Positions 30,838-33,135 of a DNA stretch of 64,000 nt are shown here, in pieces; position 1 is the stretch's first letter; each line of letters starts with the position of its first letter. The stretch spans positions 5,582,001 through 5,646,000 of the forward strand of contig NW_024704742.1 in assembly GCF_018977255.1 (NCBI RefSeq). The letters are read 5' to 3'. A program made the position numbers and the translations under genes. The stretch comes from Callorhinchus milii. Its lineage: Eukaryota. The notes below the pieces were generated by a model, which saw only the letters and a program-made list of their open reading frames with translations, was not told the origin of the DNA and searched no databases.

Positions 30838-33135
30838 ATATCCTTCAACAGTTTAATATATTCTACTAACTGTCTTGTGCCACAAAAATAATAGATGTCA
30901 CTTTAAATGAATATTGGTTGCGTCTCGTTTGTCAGCCACTTTATCTTACTCTTGCTAGGGTATGGAAATACATCTTAGCATTGTTTGTAAAAGGCTGGCT
31001 TTTGCTCCGTGGCTTTTTCATAATGTACAAACTTTATTTTGAGAAGTGCAATACAATAGAGCCTTTGTATATGCTATAGCCTTAGCATCTAATATAGACC
31101 AAGTATGTTTTGTCTGGTATGAGACTTATTGATTATTTCAGTATCCTCCATAGATCTGGCCAGTCACCTGAGAATCACCTTATGAAGTCTTCGATTGTTT
31201 TTGATATTCACATGATTTCTCACATATGTGTAAAGAATTCCCCCTCTCGTTCCTTGTGTCAGGTACTTTTTTTAAAGAATTACTCAAGAAGTGGCTGGGA
31301 TTTTACTTGGGTTGCTTCTTTTGTCAGGGTAGTTATGAAACTGTTGTCCTTGTTCAAATTGTGCAATGTTGCCAGAAAGCTATTCCTCATGCCAATTAAC
31401 TACCATATATGAAGACCGACATGACTGACCTTCAGACTTGGACCAAGTACCTCTATTGATGTATCTCCCAGGTGCATTTGACTTGACGTTCACTTGCCAA
31501 ATTGGTTTAGCACGAGCTAAGCAACTGCCTGACCTACTGGAATGCATCCCTTAAACGTTTGGATCATTTGCATCACTGGCCTAATTGGGCTGAAAACCTG
31601 CTTTGAGGGAATAGATTAAATCTGAGAACTGAATTGCAATTAAGAGCCCAATCCTGGCTAATTGGGACCAGCTCCATTGTGGATTCAGAAACAAATTGTT
31701 TCTGTGTGCGTCTTTCATACGTGCTCTCTTTCTCTCTCTGGCCTCTGTATGTAGATGACACTTAAGTCTACTTTTCCACCTCTCCTCATGAATCCAGGTT
31801 CTGTCTGCTTGCCTATCCACCTGAGGCAAAATTTCCTCCAACTGAATATGGATAAGACAGAAGCCAACATCTCCGCTCTTCCAGTTTTGACCTCCTCAAT
31901 CTCCTCAGCCTCTCTCTCAAACTCTGTGAACTGGTGACAACCTTGGTAATAGGTTCAATACAGCTTTCCTTTTTCCCCTCACATCGGGCCTCTCTTTAAG
32001 ACCGTCTTATCTTCACCTCTGCTACATTGCTATCCCCGCCTCTATTTCACAGCCATTTATGCCATCATCCCAACCTTTTATCCTCCTAGACTTTTGAAAT
32101 GCACACCTCACTGATCTCCCTAGCTCCACCATTCATAAGCTGCAACTCATCCAAAACTCTGTTGCCCACATCCTCACCAGCACCAAACTCCACACACCCA
32201 TCACTTAAGCCCTCGTTTGTCTCCCATTTGGTCATTTTGAGGTTCTCATCCTTGAGTACAAAGCTATCGACTCCTTTGCACCTTTTTATTTCTTTGCTAG
32301 TTCTCCCTGCTTCTCTGCTCAGCAAATTTGGACTTCTGCACTTTCCCTGTCCTCTCCACGCTACATAGATGACTCAGCCTTCAGTTCCTATGCACCTGAT
32401 GTCTAGCATTCCCTCCTTTTACCACTCTCTCTCACCCCTTTCTATTTTTAAGTCCTGCCTCAAATCCTAAATCTTTCGACCCGCCTTTGGCCACCTCCCT
32501 CTCCCTTCTCTCTCTTACACAGGTTCCATCCCACGTGTAAAGTGATCTGAGATATTACATTATGTGAAAGGTGCTATATAAATGCCAGTTCTTCTGATTC
32601 TGACTTTATACTGTAACTGTATCAGAACAGCCTGGTGGTTTAAACGCAAAAAAAACACCCCATCGGTTAGAATATTCAATGNTTTTTGTGTGAAATTTTA
32701 GCCACTACTTCTGGGATCTGATGCCTGATGTAGATGCTTTGCACGTGTGAATCATGTAGCTTTTTTAAACTCCCTAATCCAATTCTCAAATTTAAATTAA
32801 GTTATGTTTTTTGAGCCCCCTGTAGCCCCCAAAGTAAACTTGAACTGCTGGACTGAATAAAACTATCTCGACATGGTAGATGGAGCCTCAATAAATCTCC
32901 AAACTCGATTACAGTTTGTGAAGTACTATAAGGTGCCATAACAGATGAAGCCCAAATAGTATTTTTTGGACTTTAAGGTATTATGGTGACATCAAGGCAG
33001 TAGCGACACTATTTTCCCTAATTATGGTTGTTTCTGACTCGCGTTAGTAAATTGTTTAAATAGAGAATTGTGATTTTCTTTGGGAAAGGCTGCTGCTCTG
33101 TTTATGATGTATGTATTTCCTTAATGGTTGTTCAT
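30838..33135 (+). other. KCMF1: U12-type (minor spliceosome) intron 4 of KCMF1 with AT-AT ends
   Basis: 5' ss ATATCCTT at 30838; branch site TTTCCTTAAT at 33116-33125; ends ...gttcAT before GAT GAA TCC; joins RAPRDL|DESSG in frame. Confidence 0.9.
31700..32590 (+). mobile_element. Degenerate L2 LINE 3' portion inside the U12 intron
   Basis: tatgtagatgacac (YADD-like), ttcctccaactgaatatggataagacagaagcc, 3' tail gaaaggtgctatataaatgc. Confidence 0.75.

What the first reader, a model, noticed from the sequence alone, without database searches (positions are those of the whole stretch)
30838..33135. KCMF1 intron 4 is a minor-spliceosome intron with non-canonical AT-AT termini
Seen: exon 4 ends GATTTA and is followed by ATATCCTT, the U12 5' splice-site consensus. 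A U12 branch box TTTCCTTAAT (33116-33125) lies 10 nt before the only junction that restores the conserved RAPRDL|DESSG peptide. That junction ends in cAT (33134-33135), not AC or AG. Known: U12 introns are mostly GT-AG or AT-AC, and AT-AT ends are rare but tolerated because the 3' ss is set by distance from the branch point. Inference: a lineage-specific AC>AT change and a branch C>T change may weaken splicing and make this intron rate-limiting. Gene predictors will mis-model it.
Basis: partly seen in the sequence, partly recalled or inferred. Interest (0 to 1): 0.75.

Follow-up and report, generated by a model that had tools for sequence, protein, structure and literature searches.

The report
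KCMF1 minor intron ending in AT
The fourth intron of this elephant-shark-type KCMF1 gene is the gene's long-known minor-spliceosome intron, here ending in AT instead of the usual AC, which is a rare but already catalogued variant and not a new kind of intron.

Summary
Exon 4 (30736-30837) ends GATTTA and the intron starts ATATCCTT. TTCCTTAAT lies at 33117-33125, and the intron ends CAT at 33135. A search of all donor/acceptor pairs found only 30837/33136 restoring RAPRDL|DESSG. The window's exons 3-7, joined this way, match the NCBI Callorhinchus milii KCMF1 isoform X2 at 320 of 320 residues. They match a protein called on a 1470-base Logan contig, which must be spliced, at 318 of 320. U12, U6atac, U11 and U4atac genes are all in the genome.

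KCMF1 is a published host of a U12 AT-AC intron in fly and human (PMC2831892). AT-AT is the second commonest non-canonical minor-intron ending in animals (PMC10639083, PMC1557818). This is therefore a new member of a known kind.

The functional inference is not supported:
- The branch box fits the consensus TTCCTTRAY.
- Its T appears to be shared with a shark.

The mis-modelling prediction is correct: one UniProt model uses a GC-AG pair instead. T33135 was not checked in reads. Interest is low.

The parts
30736..30837 (+). KCMF1 exon 4 (34 codons, phase 0 at both ends), VCPICAAL...RAPRDL
   Evidence: tblastn of P0005 and P0006, 100% and 97% identity
30838..30846 (+). U12-type 5' splice site ATATCCTTC (consensus RTATCCTTT; position 9 is C)
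   Evidence: consensus from PMC8848931 (passages)
30838..33135 (+). Intron 4, 2298 bases, AT-AT termini; the only non-GT-AG intron among introns 2-6 of the gene
   Evidence: intron ends listed; junction reproduces P0124 at 320/320 residues
33117..33125 (+). U12 branch-point box TTCCTTAAT (fits TTCCTTRAY). Branch adenosine is 33123 or 33124, 11-12 bases before the last intron base
   Evidence: consensus and the 11-13 nt optimum from PMC8848931 and PMC3584512; complementary to GUAAGGAAA in this genome's own U12 gene
33134..33135 (+). 3' terminal dinucleotide AT (canonical would be AC)
33136..33310 (+). KCMF1 exon 5, DESSGVRH...MDPIA + G (ends in phase 1), followed by GTGAGT
33137..33138 (+). Second AT, 3 bases downstream (CAT|GAT|GAA). 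A possible alternative 3' site that would drop one Asp; use not shown
   Evidence: pair 30837/33139 keeps the frame. A cattle-family model (P0039) reads RAPRDL|ESSG
30879..30880 (+). GC used as donor, with the AG at 33145-33146 as acceptor, in the mis-modelled public protein P0126
   Evidence: row (30878, 33147, GC, AG) has the same peptide as P0126
32682..32682 (.). Single N inside the intron

Best explanation
Intron 4 (30838-33135) of this chimaera-type KCMF1 gene is the orthologue of the known KCMF1 minor-spliceosome intron. The window is identical at protein level to the Callorhinchus milii protein.

Inferred mechanism, by analogy with the established pathway: U11 and then U6atac recognise ATATCCTT. 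U12 pairs with TTCCTTAAT and bulges A33123 or A33124. The 3' cut is placed by distance, 11-12 bases downstream, after CAT.

The last base is T instead of C, so the intron belongs to the catalogued AT-AT (A-type, AT-AN) subclass. It is spliced at 30837/33136 and gives the conserved RAPRDL|DESSG protein.

Shown: the signals, the uniqueness of the junction, the match to spliced products and the presence of the snRNA genes. Inferred: which spliceosome acts, which adenosine branches, and that T is the true and fixed base.
For: 1. The 5' splice site, branch box and spacing all fit the U12 consensus.
2. Only 1 donor/acceptor pair restores the conserved peptide.
3. The window's exons 3-7, joined with this junction, equal NCBI XP_042192527.1 (P0124) at 320/320 residues. 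They match P0005 at 318/320; P0005 is a 330-aa protein called on a single 1470-base Logan contig, too short to hold any of the introns.
4. 62 of 127 KCMF1 homologues examined carry RAPRDL|DESSGVRH. 20 of the 127 read RDLISF into the intron, which is what ATATCCTTY encodes.
5. 33 of the 127 read into the 3' end. The residue before DESSG is Y (18), H (12) or Q (3), that is, an NAN codon with A at -2.
6. U12 (133 bits), U6atac (105), U11 (105) and U4atac (100) genes are in the same genome. The U12 gene carries GAGTAAGGAAAAT.
7. KCMF1 is listed as host of a U12 AT-AC intron in fly, with a human orthologue of the same subtype (PMC2831892, Table 2 and following text).
8. There is one KCMF1 locus in the genome, so no paralogue or retrocopy confuses the match.
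Against: P0005 differs from the window at 2 residues, so it may come from another individual or a close relative. The NCBI model may rest partly on protein homology.

The pyrimidine content of the last 40 bases (0.65) is no lower than in the four GT-AG introns examined, introns 2, 3, 5 and 6 (0.57-0.60). The 'no polypyrimidine tract' criterion is therefore not informative here.

Dependence on the minor spliceosome is inferred from sequence only.
Confidence: 0.85

Rival explanations
1. The T at 33135 is an assembly or sequencing error, or one allele of a polymorphism, and the intron is really the canonical AT-AC.
For: Fly and human KCMF1 U12 introns are AT-AC (PMC2831892). The base was never checked in reads. 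The intron holds one N at 32682, so the stretch is not flawless.
Against: A substitution error at exactly this base is unlikely a priori. AT-AT endings make up 6 of 33 non-canonical human and 6 of 30 non-canonical mouse U12 introns (PMC1557818, Table 2). They are the second commonest non-canonical ending in animals (PMC10639083). No second copy or haplotig of the locus exists in the assembly to suggest a collapse.
Confidence: 0.08
2. One reading: the AT ending together with the T in the branch box weakens this intron, so that its removal limits KCMF1 expression in this lineage.
For: Non-canonical termini support U12 splicing 'often with reduced efficiency', and U12 introns are in general removed slowly (PMC3584512, passages). 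A-type introns have higher basal retention in human cells (PMC8280824, passages). Recalled, paper not held: Dietrich et al. 2005 reported that a 5' A can splice to any 3' base, with C preferred.
Against: The branch box fits TTCCTTRAY exactly. A simple duplex energy with the genome's own U12 is -9.7 kcal/mol with U and -9.3 with C at 33125, so no weakening is predicted. That fold is not the canonical bulged-A model, and 12 of 500 shuffles reach the observed energy. The T is probably shared with Chiloscyllium (reading ISLI), so it is old and tolerated. A spliced product with the exact junction exists. No retention data were obtained.
Confidence: 0.15
3. The intron is removed mainly at other, more canonical sites, for example the GC-AG pair 30878/33147 of the UniProt/Ensembl-type model, by the major spliceosome.
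For: P0126 (UniProt A0A4W3HI14) has that junction. In flies lacking U12 or U6atac, the Kcmf1 U12 intron was still partly spliced (PMC7644725, passage).
Against: That junction deletes the conserved DESS and inserts 14 unconserved residues translated from the intron. The donor GCCACA is poor, and the acceptor lies inside conserved exon 5. P0005 and P0124 both show RDL|DESSG.
Confidence: 0.02

Closest known systems
The catalogued U12-type AT-AC intron of KCMF1 (Drosophila CG11984 intron 3 of 6, and its human orthologue; Lin et al. 2010, PMC2831892, from U12DB)
   Same: Same gene, A-type 5' end ATATCCTT, and a U12 branch box close to the 3' end. Vertebrate homologues that read into the intron show the same position after RAPRDL.
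   Different: The last base is T, not C. The paper's table does not give the position in the protein, so positional identity with the fly intron was not checked here.
AT-AT U12-type introns of human and mouse (Sheth et al. 2006, PMC1557818, Tables 2-3: 6 in each species; e.g. ERCC5 AT-AT in human and AT-AC in mouse; Gpaa1, Slc9a8, Zc3hdc6 the reverse)
   Same: Same termini, and the same kind of single-base switch from AT-AC in an otherwise conserved minor intron.
   Different: Different genes and lineage. KCMF1 is not among the listed cases, and no cartilaginous fish was in that survey.
A-type (AT-AN) minor introns, dependent on CENATAC (de Wolf et al. 2021, PMC8280824)
   Same: AT-AT is named there as one of the A-type endings, alongside AT-AC, AT-AA and AT-AG.
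   Different: CENATAC dependence and retention level were measured in human cells only; nothing was measured for this intron.
Non-canonical minor intron termini across about 3000 eukaryote genomes (Larue & Roy 2023, PMC10639083)
   Same: AT-AT is reported as the second commonest non-canonical minor ending in animals. Non-canonical endings make up about 3.8% of conserved animal minor introns.
   Different: The word Callorhinchus does not occur in the main text. The supplements were not read, so whether this intron is in their tables is unknown.

Membership tests
U12-type (minor-spliceosome) intron | 5' splice site matching RTATCCTT(T) directly after the exon | tested here: met
   ATATCCTTC at 30838-30846; 8 of 8 core positions match, and position 9 is C instead of T.
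U12-type (minor-spliceosome) intron | Branch-point sequence matching TTCCTTRAY | tested here: met
   TTCCTTAAT at 33117-33125, 9 of 9; consensus from PMC8848931. It is complementary to GUAAGGAAA of this genome's U12 gene.
U12-type (minor-spliceosome) intron | Short branch-to-3'-splice-site distance (optimum 11-13 nt) | tested here: met
   A33124 lies 11 bases and A33123 lies 12 bases before the last intron base, 33135. The optimum is from PMC3584512.
U12-type (minor-spliceosome) intron | No distinct polypyrimidine tract before the 3' splice site | tested here: inconclusive
   Pyrimidine fraction of the last 40 bases is 0.65, against 0.57-0.60 in the gene's four GT-AG introns examined (introns 2, 3, 5 and 6). 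The longest pyrimidine run (7) is the branch box itself.
U12-type (minor-spliceosome) intron | Minor-spliceosome snRNAs encoded in the genome | tested here: met
   U12 133 bits, U6atac 105, U11 105 and U4atac 100, all over the Rfam cut-offs.
U12-type (minor-spliceosome) intron | Removal depends on U11/U12/U4atac/U6atac | not testable with these tools
   Needs knock-down or in vitro splicing.
AT-AT (A-type, AT-AN) subclass | Intron begins AT and ends AT at the junction actually used in mRNA | tested here: met
   This is the only junction giving RAPRDL|DESSG. The junction reproduces P0124 at 320/320 and the spliced-contig protein P0005 at 318/320. The evidence is at protein level only.
AT-AT (A-type, AT-AN) subclass | Terminal T confirmed in independent genomic reads | not tested
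Orthologue of the catalogued KCMF1 U12 intron | Same position in the protein in other animals, with U12 signals there too | tested here: met
   20 of 127 homologues read RDLISF (= ATATCCTTY) after exon 4. 33 of 127 read an NAN codon before DESSG. In 6 of these the residues fit TCCTTAAC, and in 6 more TTCCTTAAY, 11-14 bases from the end. This is inferred from peptides, not DNA. Fly and human status comes from PMC2831892.

The most novel reading that the evidence does not exclude
The ancient KCMF1 minor intron may have changed its last base several times in vertebrates while keeping its 5' site, branch box and spacing. It ends in T in the chimaera lineage. It ends in a purine in elopomorph fishes: 3 of 3 eel and bonefish models read Q, a CAR codon, before DESSG. 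It ends in a pyrimidine elsewhere. The branch box may end in T across cartilaginous fishes. That would make this one intron a natural allelic series for testing how far the 3' terminal base matters to the minor spliceosome, and to CENATAC-type factors.
Probability: 0.4. Interest if true: 0.3.

Novelty: new member of a known kind. Interest (0 to 1): 0.15.

Why it matters
It matters little beyond annotation. It shows that a conserved minor intron can carry a non-canonical last base in a cartilaginous fish without loss of the conserved protein junction. It also gives a concrete case where a public gene model of the same species is wrong: it loses DESS and gains 14 residues translated from the intron, because the predictor insisted on near-canonical ends. 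Many other vertebrate KCMF1 models share the problem. For minor-splicing research it adds one data point to the known AT-AN class. It opens no long-standing question.

Tried and rejected
2. Orthologous DNA. The search for related loci with exon 5 gave no relative in metagenome contigs (599 pattern matches, none confirmed) or in genome contigs (601, none confirmed). In viral contigs it gave one unrelated 38% match. An exact 23-base exon-5 word in metagenome contigs gave 0 hits. The C or T state in other species therefore stays unknown. Peptides cannot tell, because NAC and NAT encode the same residue.
3. More chimaera transcripts. A second protein search, with exon 6, found only the P0005 cluster at 99% identity and shark or ray sequences at 93% or less.
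4. Papers. Dietrich et al. 2005 (PMC1370826) and Levine & Durbin 2001 (PMC60238) are not held. The one held supplement of PMC7367187 has no KCMF1.
5. Print searches. 'KCMF1' + 'minor intron' gave 2 papers and 'KCMF1' + 'U12' gave 7; I read passages of two (PMC2831892, PMC7644725), and neither those passages nor the other titles and abstract starts listed concern a cartilaginous fish or an AT-AT end.
6. Earlier findings of this scan: nothing on KCMF1 introns.
7. U12-branch duplex energy with U or C at 33125: -9.7 against -9.3 kcal/mol. This is uninformative, and the fold is not the canonical one.
8. A second motif pair, ATATCCTTC at 41079 and TTCCTTAAC at 45196. The nearest AG is about 19 bases after the branch A and there is no coding context, so it was judged chance.
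9. Rfam over the window: nothing inside intron 4.

Full report
**What is there.** The + strand of the window carries KCMF1. tblastn of database homologues places the exons as follows:

| Exon | Coordinates |
|---|---|
| 2 | ends 8384 |
| 3 | 26058-26197 |
| 4 | 30736-30837 |
| 5 | 33136-33310 |
| 6 | 36822-37104 |
| 7 | 39296-39557, with its stop |

Introns 2, 3, 5 and 6 are GT-AG. Intron 4 (2298 bases) begins ATATCCTTC, carries TTCCTTAAT at 33117-33125, and ends GGTTGTTCAT at 33135.

**Is the junction forced?** Yes. I tried every donor from 30760 to 31099 against every acceptor from 32900 to 33159, with no condition on the dinucleotides. Only 30837/33136 restores RAPRDLDESSGVRH. Shifting the junction by one base either way changes the mRNA, so the AT-AT reading is not an alignment ambiguity.

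A second AT three bases downstream (CAT|GAT|GAA) would keep the frame and drop one Asp. Nothing shows that it is used here.

That result is reported only as something tried. Three lines of indirect evidence remain:
- The window's exons 3-7, joined at this junction, give 320 residues identical at 320 of 320 to NCBI XP_042192527.1. That is KCMF1 isoform X2 of Callorhinchus milii (P0124).
- They are identical at 318 of 320 to P0005, a 330-residue protein called on one 1470-base Logan contig. A contig of that size cannot hold the five introns it spans, which total about 30 kb, so it is a spliced transcript of this species or a very close relative.
- The genome has a single KCMF1 locus.

**Which spliceosome?** The sequence evidence is all on the U12 side:
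- The 5' site matches RTATCCTT at 8 of 8 core positions.
- The branch box matches TTCCTTRAY at 9 of 9 (consensus from PMC8848931, passages).
- The branch adenosine lies 11-12 bases from the intron end, inside the 11-13 optimum (PMC3584512, passages).
- Across both strands of the window, RTATCCTT occurs 4 times and TTCCTTAAY 3 times. Their presence at both edges of one intron is not chance.
- The same genome encodes U12 (133 bits), U6atac (105), U11 (105) and U4atac (100). Its U12 gene has the branch-recognition stretch GAGTAAGGAAAAT.

Dependence on these snRNAs is inferred, not shown.

**Conservation.** I examined 127 KCMF1 homologues (P0003-P0129):

| Homologues | Reading at the junction |
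|---|---|
| 62 | RAPRDL\|DESSGVRH |
| 1 | RAPRDL\|ESSGVRH |
| 31 | lack DESSGVRH |
| 33 | another residue before DESSG: Y in 18, H in 12, Q in 3 |

- The 33 in the last row are models or ORFs that run into the intron.
- 20 of the 127 read RDLISF, the translation of ATATCCTTY, so the A-type 5' site sits at this position in birds, gar, arapaima, whitefish and others.
- In the 3' read-throughs, 6 peptides (SLT, PLT or TLT) fit TCCTTAAC and 6 (F/L-L-N) fit TTCCTTAAY, with 11-14 bases to the intron end.
- The window (ISLMVVH) and the shark Chiloscyllium (ISLIIIY) both fit TCCTTAAT with the same spacing.

These are inferences from peptides and assume the obvious codons. The last intron base itself cannot be read this way, because NAC and NAT give the same residue.

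**Comparison with what is known.**
- KCMF1 is listed among the U12 AT-AC introns conserved between fly (CG11984, intron 3 of 6) and human. The text states that the human orthologues have the same subtype (PMC2831892, Table 2 and following text).
- AT-AT U12 introns are catalogued: 6 in human and 6 in mouse, with AT-AC to AT-AT switches between the two species in ERCC5, Gpaa1, Slc9a8 and Zc3hdc6 (PMC1557818, Tables 2-3).
- AT-AT is the second commonest non-canonical minor ending in animals (PMC10639083, section on non-canonical boundaries).
- AT-AT is one of the A-type endings whose splicing CENATAC promotes (PMC8280824, passages).
- My two print searches for KCMF1 with 'minor intron' or 'U12' gave 2 and 7 papers; I read passages of two (PMC2831892, PMC7644725), and neither those passages nor the other titles and abstract starts listed concern cartilaginous fishes.

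The case is therefore a new member of a known kind.

- 'Gene predictors will mis-model it' is right. UniProt A0A4W3HI14 of the same species (P0126) reads RAPRDLISFNSLIYSTNCLVGVRH, exactly the GC-AG pair 30878/33147. A frog model (P0016) and many others are wrong in similar ways. NCBI's model is right.
- 'Branch C>T change' as a weakening is not supported. T fits the consensus and appears to be shared with a shark. It would replace a C-G pair by U-G next to the bulged adenosine (my reading). A crude duplex energy shows no loss: -9.7 against -9.3 kcal/mol. That fold is not the canonical one, and 12 of 500 shuffles reach it.
- 'AC>AT lineage-specific' is plausible given fly and human, but untested. 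Every attempt to fetch orthologous DNA failed.
- 'Rate-limiting' is untested. The general literature says that non-canonical ends often reduce efficiency and that A-type introns show higher basal retention. I also recall, without the paper in hand, that C is the preferred partner of a 5' A. A modest effect is therefore possible.

**Verdict.** This is a genuine, correctly described AT-AT minor intron in a gene long known to host a minor intron. It is ordinary for the field, useful mainly as an annotation warning, and the terminal T still needs confirming in reads.

Noticed in passing
P0050, P0082, P0102 (proteins; Gymnothorax, Conger, Albula): Three elopomorph KCMF1 models that read into the intron have Q (a CAR codon) before DESSG. 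Their KCMF1 minor intron would then end in AA or AG, not in a pyrimidine.
   Followed up: partly
P0039 (Bos mutus isoform X1, cluster of 363 members): This model reads RAPRDL|ESSG and lacks the Asp, as if a 3' site three bases downstream were used in mammals. The same tandem arrangement (CAT|GAT|) exists at window 33133-33138.
   Followed up: no
window 32682: A single N in the middle of intron 4.
   Followed up: no
window 777-839, 1189-1261, 29359-29430 (+), 58606-58678 (-), 59703-59759 (+); also 33370-33395: Five tRNA-like Rfam hits (31-48 bits), one of them in KCMF1 intron 3, plus a tRNA box-B-like GGTTCGATTCC stretch in intron 5 that ARAGORN does not call. They look like tRNA-derived SINE copies.
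   Followed up: partly
window 56628-56731 (+): A 104-base fragment matching eukaryotic LSU rRNA positions 2879-2984 (77 bits), far from any rDNA context.
   Followed up: no
window 41079-41087 and 45196-45204 (+): A second ATATCCTTC and a TTCCTTAAC about 4.1 kb apart, downstream of the KCMF1 stop. The spacing to the next AG is too long for a U12 3' site, so this was judged chance.
   Followed up: partly
window 29872-29905 and 37140-37192: A (TAA)11 microsatellite in intron 3 and three copies of an 18-base unit just inside intron 6.
   Followed up: no
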